24,366 nt of DNA from contig CAZQWH010000003.1 of NCBI GenBank assembly GCA_964597145.1, positions 57,113 through 81,478 on the forward strand. Direction: 5' to 3'. Below are positions 1 through 16,067 of this stretch, in pieces. Position numbers and translations under genes: made by a program. The notes under the pieces are model-generated. The model was not told the origin of the DNA. It worked only from the letters and a program-made list of their open reading frames with translations, and did no database searches. This stretch comes from an uncultured Candidatus Saccharibacteria bacterium. GTDB lineage: Bacteria > Patescibacteriota > CAZHWT01. Within the stretch, counting starts at the first letter, position 1. Each line of letters starts with the position of its first letter.

Positions 1-24
1 GTTCGAATCTCTCCGGGCGCACCA
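1..24 (+). tRNA. 3' terminal fragment of a tRNA gene (5' part lies outside the window); identity undetermined
   Basis: GTTCGAATC T-loop/T-stem, acceptor 3' strand CGGGCGC, discriminator A and encoded CCA at 22-24. Confidence 0.55.
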
Positions 25-173
25 GAGGTCTGATTATGACTAAAAGCCGTAGGCAGGCCTCTGATTGTATGCGGTGAATTGGTTTGGACACTTACTGAGT
101 AAGAGTTCGCTAAAGAGGAGAGTCGCTATAATTGCGCATGCATTGTTATAGCGAAGAACTCTTTACCTCCAGA

Positions 174-196
174 AGTATCTCTCCGGGCGCACCAAA
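174..196 (+). repeat. Direct repeat of the tRNA 3' end (att-like copy 2)
   Basis: AGTATCTCTCCGGGCGCACCAAA; the 18-mer ATCTCTCCGGGCGCACCA is identical to 7-24. Confidence 0.7.
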
Positions 197-336
197 GGTT
201 TGGGAATCACCGTCAGGTGGTTTGCAAATCTTTGTGTACCCAAGTAGGAATTTGAAACGCGAAGCGTGTTCGCTGACTAGGAAAGCATTATCACGACAAC
301 GATTGTCATAATGCGAACTAGGAGCCTGGCCTCGTC

Positions 337-359
337 AGTATCTCTCCGGGCGCACCAAA
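337..359 (+). repeat. Direct repeat of the tRNA 3' end (att-like copy 3), identical 23-mer to 174-196
   Basis: AGTATCTCTCCGGGCGCACCAAA repeated exactly; ends 2 nt before the ATG of the next CDS. Confidence 0.7.
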
Positions 360-360
360 T

Positions 361-786
361 ATGATTATCAATTCGACTCTAAATCAATACGCCGGCGCAT
401 TGCTGGTAACCCCTGATGGCAAAATTATTTTGCAACAACGCGATAATAAACCAGGCATTATGAACCCAGGCCAAATCACCACCTTTGGCGGAGCAGTCGA
501 AGATGGAGAAACGCCCGAGCAAGCCATAATCCGCGAGCTAAAAGAAGAGCTGGATTTAGAATATAACCAGCCTAAACTCTACAAAATTCTTCACAAAACT
601 CAAGCCACCCATGGCGAAGATCGAGAAATGCATATTTACCTCGTCCAGAATATTGACCCAACCGCTCTGGTCGTTCATGAGGGTCAGGGGTATATCCAAA
701 TTTCATCCAACGACAACTTGAGCCAATTTTACTTGACAGCATTTACCCGTGAATTGTTAGCAGATTATTTTAGACTGGTTGATTAA
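361..786 (+). CDS. NUDIX hydrolase
   Basis: Nudix box GGAVEDGETPEQAIIRELKEELDL fits GX5EX7REUXEEXGU; 141 aa. Confidence 0.85.
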   Translation: MIINSTLNQYAGALLVTPDGKIILQQRDNKPGIMNPGQITTFGGAVEDGETPEQAIIRELKEELDLEYNQPKLYKILHKTQATHGEDREMHIYLVQNIDPTALVVHEGQGYIQISSNDNLSQFYLTAFTRELLADYFRLVD

Positions 787-807
787 AGACCTATAGCATG
801 GTACAAT
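779..807 (+). promoter_or_regulatory. Sigma70-type promoter TTGATT-N17-TACAAT with conserved spacer motif AGACCTATAGCATGG
   Basis: -35 at 779-784, extended -10 TGgTACAAT at 799-807; first member of the recurring promoter family. Confidence 0.55.
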
Positions 808-856
808 CATTCGGTAGATATTCGAGTGGCCACAATCACAACCAAAGGGATTGACG

Positions 857-1357
857 ATGAATCATGCTCGCGTCCCTCTACCGCCGGACTTCCGCGAGAC
901 CAATCGACCACTTGTATTCCTAGCCGGTCCTATCCAAGGAGCGCCAGATTGGCATCGTGAGGCTACAGAACATATCCACCGGCTTAATGCCGATCAGTGG
1001 GTAGCTAGCCCCAAGCGATTCGAGTGGAACGATAGGCTCGACTATAACACGCAAGTAGATTGGGAAACCCGCCACCTCAACCAAGCGGCGTATGGCGGCG
1101 GAGTAATCTTGTTCTGGCTGGCATTAGAGGCTCAACATTTCTGCGAGCGTCCCTACGCCCAAACGTCTCGGTTTGAGCTGGGCGAGTGGAAGGTCAAGCA
1201 TGAGCGAGATGGCATTCATCTGGTTGTCGGCATAGCCGATGGTTTTACCAATCAGCGCTATATTCAACGCCGACTATCCCAGGACTGTCGCAGTGTACCC
1301 ATTTTCAACACGTTGGAGGAAACTTGCGCTCAGGCAGTAAAAATGATTGCGGCGTAA
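857..1357 (+). CDS. Nucleoside 2-deoxyribosyltransferase / DNPH1-like Rossmann-fold protein
   Basis: VFLAGPI N-terminal motif and SRFELGEW (resembles the DsGTAFEIGYA catalytic-Glu region of NDT family); ATG at 857 with RBS AAAGGGA; the ORF track start at 851 is a TTG. Confidence 0.55.
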   Translation: MNHARVPLPPDFRETNRPLVFLAGPIQGAPDWHREATEHIHRLNADQWVASPKRFEWNDRLDYNTQVDWETRHLNQAAYGGGVILFWLALEAQHFCERPYAQTSRFELGEWKVKHERDGIHLVVGIADGFTNQRYIQRRLSQDCRSVPIFNTLEETCAQAVKMIAA

Positions 1358-1651
1358 CGTCCCTCATACCACTGTGGCAACCGCCGCAGTGGCTTTTATT
1401 TTTAACCAAAATATCAGCCGATAACATGATGCAATTCCAACGTATATTTACCACGTAATTCATCATATCGAATGATGGCCTCTTCAGAACAATCTATGTT
1501 CCGAAGCCGAAAGTTTTACCGACCCCATTGTGTATAAAATGTGGAACTAAAGGCACCAACGGCAGACTTACCTAGCAGTAAAAATCGCCTCACGCTTCCT
1601 AATTAGCACCCAAGCAGTTACAATAGTTGTCTGTGTCATTTTTTGCTGCAT

Positions 1652-2302
1652 ATGAAAACCATCATCATCTCAGACACTCATTTATCTAACCGGGTTTACC
1701 GTAAAAAATATTACTACCTTAAATCGGTGATAGAACAGGCGGATAGGGTAATTATCGCGGGAGATTTTTGGGACGGGTTTTTAACCAATTTTGATAAGTT
1801 TTTACAGAGTAAATGGCAGTTGCTGTTTCCGTTGTTATTAGAGCGGCAGACAATGTATCTGTATGGTAACCACGACCGGGCCGAATGGAGTGATGAGCGA
1901 GTTAGTCTTTTCTCAGTTGAACAGGCCATGAATACCACCATAGAATGCAACGGTCAACAGTATTTTATTGCCCATGGCCATACCATTTTTACTTCTTTTG
2001 AAGACAAATACCCCATTGTAAACCGCAGCATTCCGCTGCGGATTGGCTCCAGCTTAGATATTATTCATAAACTAGTCTGGGGCAAACGCTTCTTAAATAA
2101 TGACAGCGATATTAATACGCCTATGGCCAATTGGGTAGCAAAAAACTTACCTGCAAACCAAATCTTAATCTGCGGCCATAGCCATTACCCCGAGATAAAC
2201 AGAGCAAAGCGATTTATCAATACTGGGTTTAACGGCTTAGGATATGGCAACTACGTCATTATCGACGAATCCGGCCCCCGAATCATCAAAGACCGCTACT
2301 GA
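1652..2302 (+). CDS. Calcineurin-like metallophosphoesterase
   Basis: Motifs ISDTH, AGDFWD, GNHD, AHGH, CGHSH in canonical order. Confidence 0.8.
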   Translation: MKTIIISDTHLSNRVYRKKYYYLKSVIEQADRVIIAGDFWDGFLTNFDKFLQSKWQLLFPLLLERQTMYLYGNHDRAEWSDERVSLFSVEQAMNTTIECNGQQYFIAHGHTIFTSFEDKYPIVNRSIPLRIGSSLDIIHKLVWGKRFLNNDSDINTPMANWVAKNLPANQILICGHSHYPEINRAKRFINTGFNGLGYGNYVIIDESGPRIIKDRY

Positions 2303-2491
2303 GCCGCCATTAGACACGAATGCGACTCAACCTCAACGGTTAGCGAAGTGATTGTAACTAAAGCCGGCTTCACTAGCTAATTGGATCTGAGTTTGCTACA
2401 ATCTGCCCATCTAAAAATGGATCGAGGATAGCGAGTTGCTGTAACCTCACCGTTAAAATCTTCCGCTTGGAGACATACCTAGGAGCAAGAG

Positions 2492-3289
2492 ATGGAGATT
2501 TCACCAACCGGGATTGCAATTTGGGCGACAATCATATTGGCCTTTTTTGTTGTGAGTGTTGTTCAAACAATTAAACTAGAGCAGCTAAAACGTGACCATG
2601 AGCATCTCGGTTGTCCACCAGCAACACGGGGCCATGGCCACCAGTCAAAACCTCACGCTGCTACAGCCCAAGAAGCCGAGTCGGTTATACAGCTGGCAGG
2701 GTTCGTATACCAGTTCTGCCAAGTCAAACGGGCTACCTATTTGCCAGATGGAACTACTCCCGAAACCGATGCCGACCACACCATTATGTTACTCATGCAG
2801 GCATTGGTGTTGGCGCCGCGTTATCGGCCCCAGCTCGATTTAGGCTTAGTACTGCAGCTTATCTTAATCCACGACATAGAAGAGACGTACGCCGGCGATA
2901 CGCCCACCCTGCAAATTGATGAGGCCGGCCGGAAGACCAAGGAGCAGCGAGAGGCCAGGGCTCGGCAGCGGATTAAAGCTGAATTCGGCTCCGTCTTTCC
3001 CTATTTAGTAGGGTTGCTCGAATTGTACGCGCGACAGGATACGCCGGAGGCACGGTTTGTCAAAATGTTGGATAAATTAATGCCCAACTTAAGCCATGTT
3101 CTCAATGGGGGTGTTACCCTGCACCAGGCTGGCATTACCCTGGAAGAGTATCAAGTTGGGACTAAAGAGCGTACCCAATTTTATCTCTCCACCAGCTATG
3201 GAGCGGACAATCCCGAGTTGTTGTCGTTACGCGACGCCCTACGGCCCTTCCTAGAAAAGGCCGTCTATGGCACCACTTGCCCTAGCTAA
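2492..3289 (+). CDS. HD-domain phosphohydrolase, YfbR-like 5'-deoxynucleotidase family, with N-terminal TM helix
   Basis: DADHTIMLLMQALVLA ... ILIHDIEETYAGDTPT (H...HD...D metal ligands); RBS AGGAGCA; GC-richer than neighbours. Confidence 0.6.
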   Translation: MEISPTGIAIWATIILAFFVVSVVQTIKLEQLKRDHEHLGCPPATRGHGHQSKPHAATAQEAESVIQLAGFVYQFCQVKRATYLPDGTTPETDADHTIMLLMQALVLAPRYRPQLDLGLVLQLILIHDIEETYAGDTPTLQIDEAGRKTKEQREARARQRIKAEFGSVFPYLVGLLELYARQDTPEARFVKMLDKLMPNLSHVLNGGVTLHQAGITLEEYQVGTKERTQFYLSTSYGADNPELLSLRDALRPFLEKAVYGTTCPS

Positions 3290-3479: not shown

Positions 3480-4382
3480 CTAACTATCAGTGCCCTTATC
3501 CACTTCATTGGCCGTGATCATGGCGTTACGGATTTGCTCAGCCAAGTCGTGCATCCCACCAGGAGAGTGGGGGATAAGGATAGCATTAGATTTACTCGCA
3601 TTCCCAACCTCTTTAATCGTGTCAAAGTATTGGGTCATCATGACTAAATTCATCACATCTTGAGGCGAGGCACCATGTACCGAGCCACTAAAGGCCGAGA
3701 CCGATTCACTTAAGCCCTCTATAATCGCCGTTCGCTGGTCGGCAATTCCCCGGCCTTGCAAAGCCTTGCTTTCAGCTTCGGCCTCGGCAGCCTTAACCAC
3801 TCTAATTTTATCGGCTTCGGCTTGTTCTACCGCCGCCACCCGCAACCGTTGGGCAGCATTAATTTCGTTCATACTTTCCTTAACTTTTGAATCGGGGTCG
3901 ATATCGGTAACTAGAGTTTTAATAATACCGTAGCCAAAGTCGTCCATGACTTGGTCTAACTCGGTTTTAACCGCGCTGGCAATGTCATCTTTCATCTGAA
4001 ATAAATCGTCCAAGATAATGGTTGGTACCCGGGCCCGAACGGTGTCGAAGACAAAGGAGGTTATTTGGGCTTGGGGATTCTGAAGGCGGTAGAAGGCATC
4101 TACAACTTTATTTTCCAGCACATGGTACTGGACACTAACAATGACAAACACGAACACATTGTCTTTAGTTTTGGTTTCAACCCGGACGTCGAGCTGTTGG
4201 ACGCGAAGGCTAAGGCGGCCAGCCACACGGTCGACGAAGGGAATCTTAAAGTTAAGCCCCGCATTAGCCACTTTTGTAAACCGACCAAACCGTTCTACGA
4301 GCGCGGCGGTTTGCTGCTTAACCGTAAATAATCCCAGAAAAATATATAAAATAACGATTGCTAGTCCGACTATATAAATCAC
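3480..4382 (-). CDS. SPFH/band-7 (stomatin/prohibitin-like) membrane protein
   Basis: N-terminal TM, SPFH core, coiled-coil AEAEAESKALQ region; GTG start with RBS AAGGAGG 6 nt upstream. Confidence 0.85.
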   Translation of the reverse strand: MIYIVGLAIVILYIFLGLFTVKQQTAALVERFGRFTKVANAGLNFKIPFVDRVAGRLSLRVQQLDVRVETKTKDNVFVFVIVSVQYHVLENKVVDAFYRLQNPQAQITSFVFDTVRARVPTIILDDLFQMKDDIASAVKTELDQVMDDFGYGIIKTLVTDIDPDSKVKESMNEINAAQRLRVAAVEQAEADKIRVVKAAEAEAESKALQGRGIADQRTAIIEGLSESVSAFSGSVHGASPQDVMNLVMMTQYFDTIKEVGNASKSNAILIPHSPGGMHDLAEQIRNAMITANEVDKGTDS

Positions 4383-6683: not shown

Positions 6684-7214
6684 GTGGTCACCAACCATGC
6701 ACCTGTTGATTTTGCGCCCCCAGCCCTCCCGGCCTACTGTCAGCGTTGTGGTCAACCGATCATCCCTGTTAACCAAGATCAAACCAAGTTTAAATGTGTT
6801 AACGGACATTCGACGAATCTCAATCCAACTCCAGTCGTCGTCGGAATCATTCCCGCTATCGGAGGTGGGTACGTACTCATTCGTCGCGACAGTCAACCAG
6901 GCAAAGGCCTATTAGCCTTCCCCGGAGGCTACGCTACCACTGCACGAGACATTACGGCCGAGCTTTCACGAGAAATCGAAGAGGAGATTGGCTTGCCCAC
7001 CAATCCAAAATTATGGATCCCGCTCGATTTCCAAAGTGCTACTGGCAACAACAAAATTCTACTTTTTGCCACCCGCGCAGAACCTGTGTCACCGAGCTTC
7101 CCCTGGAGCTTTAGCGATAGAGAGGTGAGCCAAGTGGTAATTGCCACTTCAGTACCAGATGCTATGGCGTTCCCACTGCATCGGGAAATCCTGCAGCAAC
7201 TTCTGCAGCTTTAA
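6684..7214 (+). CDS. NUDIX hydrolase with N-terminal zinc ribbon (NudC-like architecture)
   Basis: CQRCG-x15-C-x3-H ribbon then a degenerate Nudix box ...RDITAELSREIEEEIGL; no in-frame ATG, so GTG 6684 (RBS GGAG) or TTG 6672 start. Confidence 0.7.
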   Translation: MVTNHAPVDFAPPALPAYCQRCGQPIIPVNQDQTKFKCVNGHSTNLNPTPVVVGIIPAIGGGYVLIRRDSQPGKGLLAFPGGYATTARDITAELSREIEEEIGLPTNPKLWIPLDFQSATGNNKILLFATRAEPVSPSFPWSFSDREVSQVVIATSVPDAMAFPLHREILQQLLQL

Positions 7215-7260: not shown

Positions 7261-7394
7261 ATCCGTATTAGTACAAATCGTAGCCAGATTAGCCCAAATG
7301 CGATATAATCCTATCCGTTGGAAGAGGTTTACGGTGTCAGGTTATAACTGTCCGCTACTTATCCCTTATACCTTGGACCTTATCCCTACACCAT

Positions 7395-7413
7395 CGTGGA
7401 TGTAGCTCAGCTG
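7395..7413 (+). repeat. Duplicated 5' fragment of tRNA-His (TGGATGTAGCTCAGCTG)
   Basis: 17-19 nt identical to 7517-7533, lying ~100 bp upstream of the intact gene; no tRNA fold follows. Confidence 0.6.
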
Positions 7414-7514
7414 CAACGGCGTAGCCGGAATGCAGACAATAAGCGCCTTGCTCTAATCAGCGGAGAGCAATTGATAGAGTAAAATAAGTCGGTACAACTA
7501 AATAAAATACTTAT

Positions 7515-7592
7515 GGTGGATGTAGCTCAGCTGGTTAGAGCGCCTCTCTGTGGAAGAGGAGGTCGTGGGTTCAAGTCCCATCATCCACCCCA
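7515..7592 (+). tRNA. tRNA-His (anticodon GTG) with encoded G-1 and CCA
   Basis: Cloverleaf: G-1:C73, acceptor GTGGATG/CATCCAC, D-stem GCTC/GAGC, anticodon loop CTGTGGA, T-arm GTGGG-TTCAAGT-CCCAT, CCA 7590-7592. Confidence 0.9.
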
Positions 7593-11798: not shown

Positions 11799-11843
11799 GC
11801 TTCAGTCGATTTTGCGACAGCTGTTTTCACCAAGGAGAGTTTG

Positions 11844-13232
11844 ATGGAAGTCGGTTCGATAATTGGATTGGGCTTCGGCCTAATCGCAACCGTGGCACTC
11901 CTCGCACTTATCATTTTTGTGATTCACCTACGCAAGGTCGTGCCCACCAACATGGTGCACATCGTGCAGTCCGGCACGGCTACGACCAGCTACGGTAAAG
12001 ACATGGCAGCTGGAAACGCGTACTACGCCTGGCCAGCCTCCCTGCCGCGGCTTGGCGTCTCGGTAATCGCGTTGCCAGTTAGCAACTTCGAAGTGCCTCT
12101 TAAAGACTATGATGCGTACGACAAAGATCGTGTGCCATTCATGGTCGACATAACCGCCTTCGTCCATATCGCTAACACAGAGGTGGCTGCCCAACGGGTT
12201 GCCTCATTTGAAGAACTTGAGGCCCAACTTAGGACTATTGTTCAAGGAGCCGTCCGTAAGGTTCTAGCCTCAGATAACATCGACAACATCATGACGCAGC
12301 GCTCAACCTTTGGCGAAGCTTTTACCCAAGAGGTGAGCGATGGGCTGATGCAGTGGGGAGTTGAGACGGTAAAAAGCATGGAGTTGATGGATATCCGGGA
12401 TGCCAAGGAATCACGCGTCATCGCCGATATTATGGCGAAGAAGATCTCGGATATCAATCGAGAGAGCCGAATCGCCGTCGCCACTAACAACCAAGAAGCC
12501 GAAATGGCTGAACTGCGATCGAAACAAGAGGTCGACCTACGCCGCGAGGAAGTTGAGCAGGCTGTTGGTAAGCGCAAAGCCGAGCGCGAACAGGCTGTTG
12601 GTATGGCCAACGAGGTTTCCCGACAAGAAGTCCTGGAGCTGCAAAAAGAGACGACGCAGCGAAACATGGAAGTTAGGAGCATCGAGGAGACCCGTGAGGC
12701 TCAAATTGCCAGCGCTCGCGCCGTCATTCAGGCCGACCAGGAGCGCCAGACCCAGGAGTTGATCGCGCAAGGTCAACTCAAGGCTAAGGAATTTGAAGCC
12801 CAAGGCATCAAGGCCGAAGGCAACGCGCGAGCCGAAGCGGCAACAGCCATGCAGATGGCGCCAGTTGAAGCTCAGGTGGCTCTGGCTAAGGAAATTGGTA
12901 GCAACGAAGGTTACCAGCAGTTCTTGGCCATGAAGCAGGCTTTGGAGACACACCTGGCGGTCGGCACCGAACAGGCTCGTGCATTGCAAGGCGCTGACGT
13001 TAAGGTTATTGCCAACAGCAATAATGCCTCCGGCGGTGTCAGCAATGTCATGGATCTGTTTAGCGGCCAAGGTGGCACGCAACTGGCAGCCATGGTCGAA
13101 GCCTTCGCCCAGTCGGGCCTAGGCAGCAGCTTCTTCGCCTCAATGCTAAATAGCAGCCAGGCGTCAAGCAATTCGGACGTCATGCGCCAAAATGGTTCCG
13201 GAGATACGTCGGAGGTAATTATGCGGCACTAA
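11844..13232 (+). CDS. Flotillin-like SPFH-domain protein (FloT/YqiK family)
   Basis: N-terminal TM, SPFH domain, long Glu/Ala/Gln-rich coiled-coil flotillin region; ATG 11844 with RBS AAGGAGAG (the track start 11841 is TTG); strongly GC-rich. Confidence 0.85.
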   Translation: MEVGSIIGLGFGLIATVALLALIIFVIHLRKVVPTNMVHIVQSGTATTSYGKDMAAGNAYYAWPASLPRLGVSVIALPVSNFEVPLKDYDAYDKDRVPFMVDITAFVHIANTEVAAQRVASFEELEAQLRTIVQGAVRKVLASDNIDNIMTQRSTFGEAFTQEVSDGLMQWGVETVKSMELMDIRDAKESRVIADIMAKKISDINRESRIAVATNNQEAEMAELRSKQEVDLRREEVEQAVGKRKAEREQAVGMANEVSRQEVLELQKETTQRNMEVRSIEETREAQIASARAVIQADQERQTQELIAQGQLKAKEFEAQGIKAEGNARAEAATAMQMAPVEAQVALAKEIGSNEGYQQFLAMKQALETHLAVGTEQARALQGADVKVIANSNNASGGVSNVMDLFSGQGGTQLAAMVEAFAQSGLGSSFFASMLNSSQASSNSDVMRQNGSGDTSEVIMRH

Positions 13233-13293: not shown

Positions 13294-13506
13294 CCACAAC
13301 CCTACATATAGTAATGCGCCAGTTCAAATACCTATAATCTTCGAGTTTACTTACCCATCTATACCCTACGCCATATATTCAACCATTAAATTATGGAAAC
13401 GCATTAGCCTATGAGGAATTCTTTAGACAACGATCTAAAGAATGTGCGATACACGCAACAGCCAGGTTAGCACTACAACGATAGCAATAGCAATGAACTA
13501 TCCGCA

Positions 13507-15885: not shown

Positions 15886-16067
15886 GCCTATCCTTCCAAC
15901 CAGCATGAGGTGGCCGAATAAAACATTCGGTCACCTCGATTCACTTCTAATATCATTTTAAACTTAGAAATAGATTGAGTTTTGACTTTAAGCCTTAGAA
16001 TGAGGAAATGCTATGGTAGCAACGATTACCATAGGGATGGACTATTCACAGGGTATGAGTCAATACA

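What the first reader, a model, noticed from the sequence alone, without database searches (positions are those of the whole stretch)
361..3289. Co-directional cluster of four distinct nucleotide-processing enzyme families next to a tRNA att-repeat array
The cluster is NUDIX pyrophosphohydrolase, a nucleoside 2-deoxyribosyltransferase/DNPH1-like N-glycosidase fold, a calcineurin-like metallophosphoesterase and an HD-domain YfbR-like 5'-deoxynucleotidase. It is encoded head-to-tail immediately after the tRNA 3' end repeats. A second, NudC-like zinc-ribbon NUDIX lies at 6684-7214. Together these could dismantle a (modified) nucleotide down to base plus sugar-phosphate. That suggests three possibilities:
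- a salvage or sanitising module
- a module processing non-canonical or modified nucleotides
- an island-borne module degrading nucleotide second messengers or ADP-ribose derivatives, as immune-signalling or counter-defence systems do
The location at a tRNA integration hotspot argues that the module is acquired.
Basis: partly seen in the sequence, partly recalled or inferred. Interest (0 to 1): 0.6.

Follow-up and report, generated by a model that had tools for sequence, protein, structure and literature searches.

The report
Chance neighbourhood of four nucleotide hydrolase genes
Four real genes for nucleotide-cleaving enzymes sit side by side after a tRNA gene in a small, probably Patescibacteria, genome, but comparison with relatives shows a loose, recently assembled neighbourhood of separate housekeeping genes, not a conserved or imported module.

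Summary
The window has four intact, co-directional genes:
- NUDIX, 361-786
- NDT-like (PF15891), 857-1357
- metallophosphoesterase, 1652-2302
- HD_3 (YfbR-like), 2492-3289

They start 3 nt after the last of three copies of a tRNA-Arg(TCT) 3' end.

The module/island interpretation is not supported.
- **Transcription:** a strong terminator (1369-1392) and a promoter conserved in relatives split the cluster into at least two units.
- **NDT-like gene:** none of the other three families was its immediate neighbour in 66 genomes or lay within 3 kb in 80 loci.
- **Phosphoesterase:** it is a slowly evolving core gene. It sits beside Mur-ligase/LeuRS/VIT1 in four other genomes.
- **Adjacency in relatives:** HD is adjacent to the phosphoesterase only in the two closest relatives. 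NUDIX is adjacent in one of them. The NDT-like gene is adjacent to the others in none.
- **Island features:** no integrase, no bounding repeat and no defence-system hits were found.
- **tRNA-Arg:** it lies next to the phosphoesterase in relatives too, but inverted.

Most likely these are independent nucleotide-pool sanitising and salvage enzymes.

One side observation is more unusual. The "att array" consists of ~165-nt tandem units that are conserved in relatives. Each unit carries a covarying hairpin (loop CAACGA) that matches no Rfam family.

The parts
1..24 (+). 3' end of tRNA-Arg(TCT), cut by the window start
   Evidence: L004 extends 24 nt upstream and shows the anticodon loop and T-arm (my reading). 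ARAGORN calls tRNA-Arg(TCT) with the same 3' end in relatives L088, L089 and L097.
7..32 (+). Repeat copy 1 (the tRNA 3' end itself plus 8 nt)
25..194 (+). Tandem unit 1 (170 nt): hairpin directly after CCA, small hairpin, two-helix motif with a variant loop, then a copy of the tRNA 3' end (177-194)
   Evidence: Weak R1 hit at 109-194 (18.8 bits).
195..357 (+). Tandem unit 2 (163 nt) with the conserved hairpin motif at 270-326, ending in the third copy of the tRNA 3' end (340-357)
   Evidence: R2 hit at 66.2 bits (this copy was a training sequence). Covariation. MFE fold.
361..786 (+). NUDIX1, a 141-aa MutT-like Nudix hydrolase with a canonical Nudix box (GGAVEDGETPEQAIIRELKEELDL)
   Evidence: Pfam, 53.1 bits. 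NCBIfam best partial hits are NudG and MutT, far below cut-offs. PDB relatives are MutT, CTP pyrophosphohydrolase and 8-oxo-dGTPase. A homologue (69-83% identity over two frames) lies directly upstream of the phosphoesterase in L092.
779..807 (+). Promoter-like site (TTGATT-17-TACAAT with an extended TG) upstream of the NDT-like gene
   Evidence: This is a consensus match only.
857..1357 (+). NDT-like protein (PF15891), 166 aa. A stand-alone, highly conserved, uncharacterised family.
1369..1402 (+). Intrinsic terminator (10-bp stem, 7 GC pairs, T-run) ending the NDT-like transcription unit
   Evidence: Also visible directly in the sequence.
1585..1651 (+). Phosphoesterase promoter/5' region conserved with relatives L088, L089 and L092 (contains TACAAT). 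Homology with relatives starts here.
   Evidence: Alignment.
1652..2302 (+). Calcineurin-like metallophosphoesterase, 216 aa. A core gene of the lineage.
   Evidence: Pfam. About 50 homologues at 52-86% identity, most of them exactly 216 aa. No PDB sequence relative at E<=0.01.
2492..3289 (+). HD_3 (YfbR/HDDC2-like) phosphohydrolase, 265 aa, with a ~47-aa N-terminal hydrophobic extension absent from aligned homologues
   Evidence: Pfam. Alignment with invariant H127, D128 and D194 and nearly invariant H96. PDB profile hits include 3KH1, HDDC2, YGL101W and YfbR. AGGAG lies 6 nt upstream of the ATG.
6684..7214 (+). Second NUDIX (not part of the cluster)
   Evidence: Pfam, 24.4 bits. Five unrelated genes lie in between.
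7516..7592 (+). tRNA-His(GTG), the downstream landmark of the region shared with relatives
   Evidence: tRNA-His lies downstream of the phosphoesterase in L097 and L099.

Best explanation
The four genes are genuine. They are independent single-gene functions that became neighbours recently in one lineage of a small, probably Patescibacteria (CPR, Saccharibacteria-like), chromosome.

**How the neighbourhood is built**
- The metallophosphoesterase is an old, slowly evolving core gene with its own conserved promoter. In relatives it lies beside tRNA-Arg(TCT) and upstream of tRNA-His.
- The HD_3 phosphohydrolase sits next to it only in the two closest relatives.
- The MutT-like NUDIX sits next to it in one relative.
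- The NDT-like gene has its own promoter-like site and terminator. It lies between NUDIX and the phosphoesterase only in this genome.

**Likely roles (inferred from family knowledge, not shown)**
- NUDIX1 hydrolyses aberrant or excess (d)NTPs to (d)NMPs.
- The HD_3 enzyme dephosphorylates (d)NMPs to nucleosides.
- The NDT-like enzyme cleaves or exchanges the base of a (deoxy)nucleoside or nucleotide.
- The phosphoesterase has an unknown phosphodiester or pyrophosphate substrate.

Together these are ordinary pool sanitising and salvage functions for an organism expected to depend on scavenged nucleotides. They are not one regulated pathway.
For: **Separate transcription units**
- Terminator at 1369-1392 and a promoter-like site at 779-807.
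- The phosphoesterase upstream region is conserved in L088, L089 and L092, while everything further upstream differs.

**The NDT-like gene stands alone**
- There are 1185 homologues. The 120 listed are 50-60% identical and the named ones span several phyla.
- The 80 genome loci come from CPR, DPANN, Planctomycetota, Bacteroidota, Kiritimatiellota and others.
- Neighbour clustering finds no recurrent family.
- A Pfam scan of 123 immediate neighbours finds no family in more than 3.
- HMM scans of the 80 loci find HD in 1, NUDIX1-like in 1 and the phosphoesterase in 0.

**The phosphoesterase is a core gene**
- About 50 homologues at 52-86% identity, most exactly 216 aa.
- In L096, L180, L187 and L191 it lies near VIT1, a Mur ligase and, where the locus reaches that far, LeuRS.
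- tRNA-Arg lies next to the phosphoesterase in L088, L089 and L097. tRNA-His lies downstream in L097 and L099. LiaF lies between them in L097, as in the window.

**Adjacency is limited to the closest relatives**
- L088/L089 have phosphoesterase-HD-Band7.
- L092 has NUDIX1-phosphoesterase-121 aa ORF-HD.
- No HD, NUDIX1 or close NDT-like gene is found in L096, L097, L099, L180, L181, L187 or L191.

**No island or defence hallmarks**
- No integrase in the window.
- No further repeat copy.
- No plasmid or phage DNA match.
- PADLOC gives only generic hits.
- The NDT-like family occurs in only 5 IMG/VR contigs.
Against: - All four genes are co-directional and share a nucleotide-hydrolysis theme.
- From my rough assumption that 3-5% of genes belong to such superfamilies, four in a row is expected in only a few percent of ~1000-gene genomes. 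I did not test this.
- Phosphoesterase-HD adjacency survives in three genomes whose HD proteins are only 59-62% identical. NUDIX1-phosphoesterase adjacency is seen in two. A looser functional link among these three cannot be excluded.
- L097 has a distant NDT-family ORF (E 5e-6) 3 kb from its phosphoesterase.
- There are no expression data, so read-through of the terminator is possible.
- The taxon is inferred only from the names of a few homologues.
Confidence: 0.62

Rival explanations
1. A partial functional unit. The phosphoesterase, the HD_3 nucleotidase and perhaps NUDIX1 cooperate in this clade to degrade a phosphodiester or pyrophosphate-linked nucleotide to a nucleoside. The NDT-like gene is a later, unrelated insertion.
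For: - Phosphoesterase-HD adjacency in the window, in L088/L089 (83-nt gap) and in L092.
- NUDIX1 lies directly upstream of the phosphoesterase in L092.
- The genes are co-directional.
Against: - The adjacency disappears in all seven genomes with phosphoesterase at 60-72% identity.
- Band7 is also syntenic in L089, so this may be plain inherited gene order.
- HD evolves much faster than the phosphoesterase (59% against 86% identity in the same contig).
- The gap between the two genes is 189 nt in the window, and a 121-aa ORF is inserted between them in L092.
Confidence: 0.2
2. NUDIX1 plus the NDT-like gene (or the NDT-like gene alone) arrived by recombination at the tRNA-Arg locus. That would make this part of the cluster horizontally acquired.
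For: - The genes start 3 nt after the last tRNA 3'-end repeat.
- The NDT-like gene is absent from the same position in L092 and L088.
- It carries its own promoter-like site and terminator.
- It is no closer to Saccharibacteria copies than to those of other phyla, and the tree is star-like.
- tRNA-Arg is inverted relative to the phosphoesterase compared with L088 and L097, which shows local rearrangement.
Against: - No integrase and no downstream repeat.
- The repeats bound only two ~165-nt units that are themselves conserved in relatives.
- No clear GC shift.
- NUDIX1 is present next to the phosphoesterase in L092 without any tRNA.
Confidence: 0.12
3. An immune-signalling, counter-defence or modified-nucleotide processing module. 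It would degrade cyclic oligonucleotides or ADP-ribose derivatives, or clear modified dNMPs as DNPH1 does.
For: - NUDIX, HD, metallophosphoesterase and NDT/TIR-like folds do occur in such systems (general knowledge).
- There is a weak PADLOC PDC-S07 hit for NUDIX1.
- DNPH1 and MilB are structural relatives of the NDT-like protein.
Against: - No sensor, cyclase, effector, DNA-modification or restriction genes are nearby.
- The PADLOC hits are generic domain hits. PHROGs gives only generic NUDIX and metallophosphoesterase hits and one weak hit of unknown function.
- The NDT-like family is nearly absent from viral contigs and has no conserved partners.
- The phosphoesterase is a vertically inherited core gene.
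Confidence: 0.05

Closest known systems
MutT/NudG-type Nudix house-cleaning hydrolases (E. coli MutT, NudG, NudI)
   Same: - Size is 141 aa.
- The Nudix box is canonical.
- Best partial profile and PDB matches are to MutT, CTP pyrophosphohydrolase and 8-oxo-dGTPase.
   Different: - Scores are far below every equivalog cut-off, for example MutT 37.7 against 97.9.
- Metagenome relatives found were at most ~36% identical over most of the protein. The only close homologue found is in L092.
- The substrate is unknown.
Nucleoside 2-deoxyribosyltransferase / DNPH1 / MilB N-glycosidase fold; Pfam PF15891; PDB 4MCJ
   Same: - Rossmann-like fold in the model.
- Foldseek hits to 4MCJ, MilB and DNPH1.
- PF15891 scores above its cut-off.
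- The family has an invariant glutamate in an FEL(G/A)EW motif, which resembles the xELG nucleophile motif of DNPH1 and NDT. The motif comparison is my recollection and inference.
   Different: - Only 14-20% identical to any solved structure.
- No characterised member was found.
- Whether it acts on nucleosides or nucleotides, and as a hydrolase or a transferase, is unknown.
- The family is unusually conserved (39 invariant columns among 26 sequences spanning several phyla).
- It always stands alone.
YfbR / HDDC2 / yeast YGL101W 5'-(deoxy)nucleotidases (Pfam HD_3)
   Same: - HD_3 scores 91.8 bits.
- The H...HD...D metal ligands are conserved or nearly so.
- Profile hits to HDDC2, YGL101W and YfbR structures.
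   Different: - The YfbR-like Pfam model is below its cut-off (18.2 against 25.9).
- No NCBIfam hit.
- It has a unique ~47-aa hydrophobic N-terminal extension that suggests membrane anchoring. None of the 15 aligned homologues has it.
YfcE/MJ0936-type calcineurin-like phosphodiesterases (Metallophos_2)
   Same: - Metallophos_2 scores 48.9 bits.
- The metallophosphoesterase motifs (SDTH, GD, GNHD, GH, GHSH) are readable in the sequence.
   Different: - Below the YfcE subfamily cut-off (39.6 against 56.25) and far below the LpxH cut-off (23.5 against 134).
- No PDB sequence relative.
- The substrate is unknown.
tRNA-linked genomic islands (attL/attR duplication of a tRNA 3' end by tyrosine integrases)
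   Same: Direct repeats of the 3' 17-26 nt of a tRNA lie downstream of that tRNA.
   Different: - The repeat-bounded segments are only ~165 nt.
- They have no ORFs and no integrase.
- They are conserved as tandem structured units in relatives.
- The enzyme genes lie outside them.

Membership tests
Nudix hydrolase superfamily (NUDIX1, 361-786) | Nudix box GX5EX7REUXEEXGU and a Pfam PF00293 score above the gathering cut-off | tested here: met
   The box reads G-x5-E-x7-RELKEELDL; the final G is replaced by D. Pfam scores 53.1 bits against 21.1.
MutT 8-oxo-dGTPase / NudG equivalogs | NCBIfam equivalog score above the curated cut-off | tested here: not met
   MutT scores 37.7 against 97.9. NudG scores 40.6 against 156.
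NDT / DNPH1-like N-glycosidase fold (857-1357) | Profile match and fold similarity to NDT, DNPH1 or MilB | tested here: met
   PF15891 scores 32.6 bits against 30. The model has pLDDT 89. Foldseek gives 4MCJ at E 7e-5, MilB at probability 0.96 and DNPH1 at probability 0.77.
NDT / DNPH1-like N-glycosidase fold (857-1357) | Catalytic glutamate nucleophile at the structurally equivalent position | tested here: inconclusive
   E107 in FELGEW is invariant in 26 sequences. I did not obtain a residue-level structural superposition, so equivalence is inferred from motif resemblance.
NDT / DNPH1-like N-glycosidase fold (857-1357) | N-glycosidic bond cleavage or base-exchange activity | not testable with these tools
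   Needs an enzyme assay.
HD_3 / YfbR-like 5'-deoxynucleotidase (2492-3289) | HD_3 profile match and the H...HD...D metal-binding residues | tested here: met
   HD_3 scores 91.8 bits. H127, D128 and D194 are invariant and H96 is nearly invariant. PDB hits include HDDC2, YGL101W and YfbR.
HD_3 / YfbR-like 5'-deoxynucleotidase (2492-3289) | Narrow YfbR-like model (PF12917) above its cut-off | tested here: not met
   18.2 bits against 25.9.
Calcineurin-like metallophosphoesterase (1652-2302) | Pfam Metallophos or Metallophos_2 above the cut-off, with the metal-binding motifs | tested here: met
   Scores are 48.9 against 27 and 39.6 against 21.5. The motifs DTH, GD, GNHD, GH and GHSH are visible in the translation.
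LpxH / YfcE specific families | NCBIfam score above the cut-off | tested here: not met
   LpxH scores 23.5 against 134. YfcE scores 39.6 against 56.25.
NudC NAD+ diphosphatase (claimed for 6684-7214) | zf-NADH-PPase zinc ribbon plus a NudC equivalog match | tested here: not met
   No PF09297 hit at E<=0.1. No NudC hit for this protein in NCBIfam; the best hits are partial matches to NadM-Nudix domains. A CxxC-x15-CxxxH pattern is present by eye.
Operon / single transcription unit | Short gaps, no internal terminator and conserved gene order across genomes | tested here: not met
   The gaps are 70, 294 and 189 nt. A terminator lies at 1369-1392. An internal promoter region is conserved in relatives. 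The gene order is not conserved.
tRNA-integrated genomic island | Integrase gene, and direct repeats of the tRNA 3' end bracketing the cargo | tested here: not met
   No integrase or recombinase domain in the window ORFs scanned. All three repeat copies lie upstream of the genes and none elsewhere in 24 kb.
tRNA-integrated genomic island | Cargo absent from the same locus in relatives | tested here: inconclusive
   The NDT-like gene is absent in L092 and L088. NUDIX1 is present in L092, and the phosphoesterase and HD are present in both. The tRNA orientation differs between genomes.
Known anti-phage defence systems (PADLOC) | Match to system-specific protein models with partner genes nearby | tested here: not met
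   Only generic hits to candidate families PDC-S07 and PDC-S10. Nothing for the NDT-like or HD proteins.

The most novel reading that the evidence does not exclude
The real novelty at this locus may be the "att array" rather than the enzymes.

**What the array looks like**
- The ~165-nt tandem units lie downstream of tRNA-Arg. A relative also has one unit downstream of tRNA-Gly, ending in a degenerate copy of that tRNA's 3' end.
- Each unit carries a structure-conserved, sequence-variable two-helix hairpin with loop CA(A/G)CGA.

**What it could be**
- A lineage-specific family of non-coding mini-integrative elements, in effect bare attP-like cassettes mobilised in trans.
- Or a new structured RNA.

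The same recombination system might have shuffled NUDIX1 and the NDT-like gene into this position.

Separately, the NDT-like clade (PF15891) is about 50-60% identical across CPR, DPANN, Planctomycetota and other lineages. It could be an unrecognised nucleotide N-glycosidase feeding scavenged nucleotides into sugar-phosphate metabolism.
Probability: 0.15. Interest if true: 0.6.

Novelty: new member of a known kind. Interest (0 to 1): 0.25.

Why it matters
**The gene cluster.** It does not matter much. It illustrates that thematically coherent runs of hydrolase genes in tiny genomes can arise from rearrangement rather than from selection for a pathway. A tRNA-end repeat next to genes is not by itself evidence of an island.

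**Two by-products could matter.**
- The PF15891 NDT-like clade is strongly conserved, widely and patchily distributed across phyla, and apparently uncharacterised. It is common in the reduced genomes of CPR bacteria and DPANN archaea. That makes it a good candidate for an unassigned step of nucleotide scavenging.
- The tRNA-linked tandem units have a covarying hairpin with no Rfam counterpart. They may be a new small mobile element or a new RNA in Patescibacteria.

Tried and rejected
**Whole cluster as an operon.** Rejected because of the terminator, the internal promoters and the gap sizes.

**Conserved partners for the NDT-like gene.** None were found by three methods:
- BLAST clustering of all ORFs in 80 loci.
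- A Pfam scan of 123 immediate neighbours.
- HMM scans for HD, the phosphoesterase and NUDIX.

**Partners around distant NUDIX1 relatives.** None in 80 metagenome loci.

**Defence or phage origin.** Nothing specific turned up:
- PADLOC and PHROGs.
- IMG/VR has only 5 contigs with the NDT-like family.
- blastn against plasmids and phages gave no match.

**A downstream att copy.**
- None at up to 3 mismatches.
- There is an 8-nt GGCACCAA near 1550, but an 8-mer is expected about 0.7 times by chance in 24 kb, so I dismissed it.

**tRNA-like folding of the tandem units.** I tested pairing of the GGTAGG/GGAGAG box with the T-stem strand. It was rejected because L088 unit 1 does not fit and no acceptor 5' strand exists.

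**Literature.** Searches for PF15891 and for CPR nucleotide salvage gave nothing usable.

**Rfam.** The units have no match at permissive thresholds.

**NDT-like phylogeny.** The tree is star-like and uninformative about origin.

**A hidden ORF in the 1393-1651 gap.** None of at least 30 aa lies within the gap.

Full report
**1. What is there**

The first 3.3 kb of the window holds four intact ORFs on the + strand.
- NUDIX, 361-786, 53.1 bits.
- Nuc_deoxyri_tr2 (PF15891), best start 857, end 1357, 32.6 bits against a cut-off of 30.
- Metallophos_2, best start 1652, end 2302, 48.9 bits.
- HD_3, 2492-3289, 91.8 bits.

The narrower labels are weaker:
- The YfbR-like Pfam model is below its cut-off (18.2 against 25.9).
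- No NCBIfam equivalog is reached by any of the proteins. Examples are MutT 37.7 against 97.9, YfcE 39.6 against 56.25 and LpxH 23.5 against 134.

Further support for individual proteins:
- The NDT-like fold is confirmed by an AlphaFold model (pLDDT 89). Its best PDB matches are 4MCJ (putative nucleoside deoxyribosyltransferase), then the CMP N-glycosidase MilB and human DNPH1.
- The HD protein keeps the H...HD...D metal ligands. As a profile it hits HDDC2, yeast YGL101W and YfbR.
- NUDIX1 has a canonical Nudix box and MutT/NudG-like relatives.
- The second NUDIX (6684-7214) is marginal at 24.4 bits. No NudC or zinc-ribbon model hits it. Five unrelated genes separate it from the cluster.

**2. 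The tRNA repeats**

- The window begins inside a tRNA 3' end. Contig L004 adds 24 nt, and I read it as tRNA-Arg(TCT). ARAGORN calls tRNA-Arg(TCT) with the same 3' end in relatives.
- The 17-nt 3' end recurs at 178-194 and 341-357 and nowhere else in 24 kb. Shuffles give a mean of 0.04 matches.
- The NUDIX start codon is 3 nt after the third copy.
All repeats are upstream of the genes, so they bracket only two ~165-nt segments and not the enzyme genes.

**3. Not one transcription unit**

- The gaps between the genes are 70, 294 and 189 nt.
- A 10-bp, GC-rich stem with a T-run follows the NDT-like gene at 1369-1392. An extended -10 promoter-like site precedes that gene.
- The ~70 nt upstream of the phosphoesterase ATG, including a TACAAT, aligns with three relatives. 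Everything further upstream is unrelated.
- No ORF of at least 30 aa lies within the 294-nt gap.

**4. Not a conserved module**

*NDT-like protein*
- It belongs to a large family. There are 1185 hits. The 120 listed are 50-60% identical, and 39 columns are invariant among 26 sequences.
- In one-genome-per-species data it was found in Patescibacteria, Saccharibacteria, DPANN archaea, Planctomycetota, Bacteroidota, Kiritimatiellota and others.
- Clustering all ORFs of 80 loci finds no recurrent neighbour.
- A Pfam scan of 123 immediate neighbours finds no family in more than three.
- HMMs for the HD and phosphoesterase families, and phmmer with the two window NUDIX proteins, find HD in one locus, a NUDIX1 relative in one (5 kb away) and the phosphoesterase in none.
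- Eighty loci around distant NUDIX1 relatives contain none of the other three.

*Phosphoesterase*
- It is much more conserved than its neighbours. About 50 homologues are 52-86% identical, and most are exactly 216 aa.
- At 63-68% identity it lies near VIT1, a Mur ligase and, where the locus reaches that far, LeuRS, in four distinct genomes.
- At 72% identity it lies next to a PAP2 gene.
- HD, NUDIX1 and a close NDT-like gene are absent from all these loci.

*Closest relatives*
- L088/L089 (phosphoesterase 82%, HD 62% identical) have phosphoesterase-HD-Band7.
- L092 (phosphoesterase 86%, HD 59%) has NUDIX1 (frameshifted)-phosphoesterase-121 aa ORF-HD, with no NDT-like gene.

The four-family run exists only in this genome. 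A three-family or two-family neighbourhood exists in a narrow clade.

**5. Not a demonstrable island**

- No integrase or recombinase domain is found among the window ORFs scanned.
- There is no downstream att copy, no sharp GC change and no similarity to plasmids or phages.
- Pieces of the layout are shared. tRNA-Arg(TCT) sits directly next to the phosphoesterase in L088, L089 and L097. tRNA-His follows downstream in L097 and L099. A LiaF-like gene lies between them in both the window and L097.
- In those relatives tRNA-Arg is on the opposite strand, so its 3' end points away from the phosphoesterase. This shows a local rearrangement in the window's lineage rather than insertion of a bounded element.
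- The NDT-like gene alone may be a recent arrival. It has its own promoter-like site and terminator, it is absent at this position in relatives, and it is no closer to Saccharibacteria copies than to other phyla. The tree is star-like, so this evidence is weak.

**6. Defence or modified-nucleotide readings**

- PADLOC returns only generic NUDIX and metallophosphoesterase hits to candidate families.
- PHROGs returns only generic NUDIX and metallophosphoesterase hits and one weak hit of unknown function.
- The NDT-like family is found in only 5 of 2.9 million viral contigs.
- No sensor, cyclase, effector or DNA-modification genes are nearby.
- These readings are not excluded biochemically, but nothing supports them.

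**7. Best explanation**

- These are independent pool-sanitising and salvage enzymes whose juxtaposition is recent and lineage-specific.
- The biochemical roles are inferred from family knowledge and are not shown here. NUDIX would convert (d)NTP to (d)NMP. HD_3 would convert (d)NMP to nucleoside. The NDT-like enzyme would cleave or exchange the base. The phosphoesterase has an unknown substrate.
- That CPR organisms lack de novo nucleotide synthesis is my background knowledge. The taxon itself is inferred only from named homologues: Candidatus Saccharibacteria for HD, and Patescibacteria and Roizmanbacteria for the phosphoesterase.
- A looser phosphoesterase-HD(-NUDIX1) functional link within the narrow clade remains possible. 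I give it about 0.2.

**8. Side observation: the tandem units**

*Conservation*
- The two ~165-nt segments between the tRNA-end copies are not random scars. L088 and L097 have the same arrangement downstream of their tRNA-Arg: two units at 160-170 nt spacing, each ending in a copy of the tRNA 3' end.

*Anatomy of a unit*
- A terminator-like hairpin lies directly after the CCA.
- A small hairpin follows.
- Then comes a two-helix element. It consists of an xTAG box pairing with a downstream CTAx, a purine-rich internal loop, and a 10-12 bp stem with a constant CTAT/ATAG core. The hexaloop is CA(A/G)CGA, or CGACGA in one copy.

*Covariation*
- On seven copies, 92% of cells pair and 11 of 17 pairs show changes on both sides.
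- No shuffle out of 500 reaches the observed score, and slid controls give 22-49% pairing.

*Distribution*
- A covariance model finds one further copy in the window at 13402-13457 (E 1.7e-4).
- A copy lies after tRNA-Gly in L097, followed by a degenerate copy of the tRNA-Gly 3' end.
- No other full-length match (one 20-nt partial hit, E 0.09) in about 1.4 Mb of other loci.
- Rfam has no match.

*Possible identities, none tested*
- Non-coding attP-like mini-elements.
- A REP/RAYT-like element; the 5' (G/T/C)TAG box is suggestive.
- A structured RNA.

**9. Verdict**

The domain calls are right, but the module and island reading is not supported. The cluster is ordinary, and I score interest at about 0.25, mostly for the uncharacterised NDT-like clade and the tRNA-linked hairpin units.

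Noticed in passing
window 25-357; L088 947-1275 (-); L097 5502-5840 (-); L097 599-765 (+): Tandem ~165-nt units lie downstream of tRNA-Arg(TCT) in three genomes, and one unit lies downstream of tRNA-Gly in L097. Each ends in a partly degenerate copy of that tRNA's 3' end. Each contains a two-helix hairpin with a sequence-variable, covarying stem and a CA(A/G)CGA loop. There is no Rfam match.
   Followed up: partly
window 13402-13457 and 15993-16050 (+): Two further copies of the same hairpin motif lie in intergenic regions upstream of same-strand genes (13604, 16198). They are not next to a tRNA. Each is followed by a second long hairpin ending in CCTATAG. This suggests a longer repeated intergenic element.
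   Followed up: partly
window 7393-7413 vs 7513-7533: The first ~18 nt of tRNA-His (GTGGATGTAGCTCAGCTG) are duplicated 120 nt upstream of the gene. This is a 5'-end fragment repeat, which is unusual for integrase scars.
   Followed up: no
window 2492-2632: The HD_3 protein has a ~47-aa N-terminal extension with a 21-residue hydrophobic helix (GIAIWATIILAFFVVSVVQTI) and a good Shine-Dalgarno sequence. None of the 15 aligned homologues has it. The enzyme may be membrane-anchored, or the start may have shifted.
   Followed up: partly
window 857-1357 and loci L007-L086: This PF15891 NDT-like clade is unusually conserved: listed hits are 50-60% identical across bacterial and archaeal phyla, with 39 invariant columns. 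It is frequent in CPR and DPANN genomes, always stands alone, and I found no characterised member.
   Followed up: partly
L092 2234-2688: In the closest relative the NUDIX1 homologue is split over two frames. This is either a frameshift pseudogene or an assembly error in a single Logan contig. It abuts the phosphoesterase gene with a 31-nt gap.
   Followed up: no
window 357-361: The NUDIX1 ATG is 3 nt after the CCA of the third tRNA-end repeat and has no Shine-Dalgarno sequence. The gene may be read from a transcript that starts in, or passes through, the repeat units.
   Followed up: no
L096, L180, L187, L191: In more distant relatives the 216-aa phosphoesterase is repeatedly near VIT1, a 427-aa Mur-ligase-family gene and, where the locus extends that far, LeuRS. 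In L180 the 1068-aa LeuRS carries a precomputed NUDIX Pfam hit inside it.
   Followed up: no
L097 3210-3782; 5153-5208 and 5386-5441; 11860-13509: This relative has three features of note. A distant NDT-family ORF (E 5e-6) lies 3 kb from its phosphoesterase. A different 56-nt hairpin repeat (93% identical copies) lies beyond the tRNA-Arg units. A serine recombinase gene lies directly after tRNA-His.
   Followed up: no
window 3480-4382 (-) and 11841-13232 (+): Two SPFH/Band-7 (flotillin-like) genes lie within 24 kb. The first is syntenic with L089.
   Followed up: no
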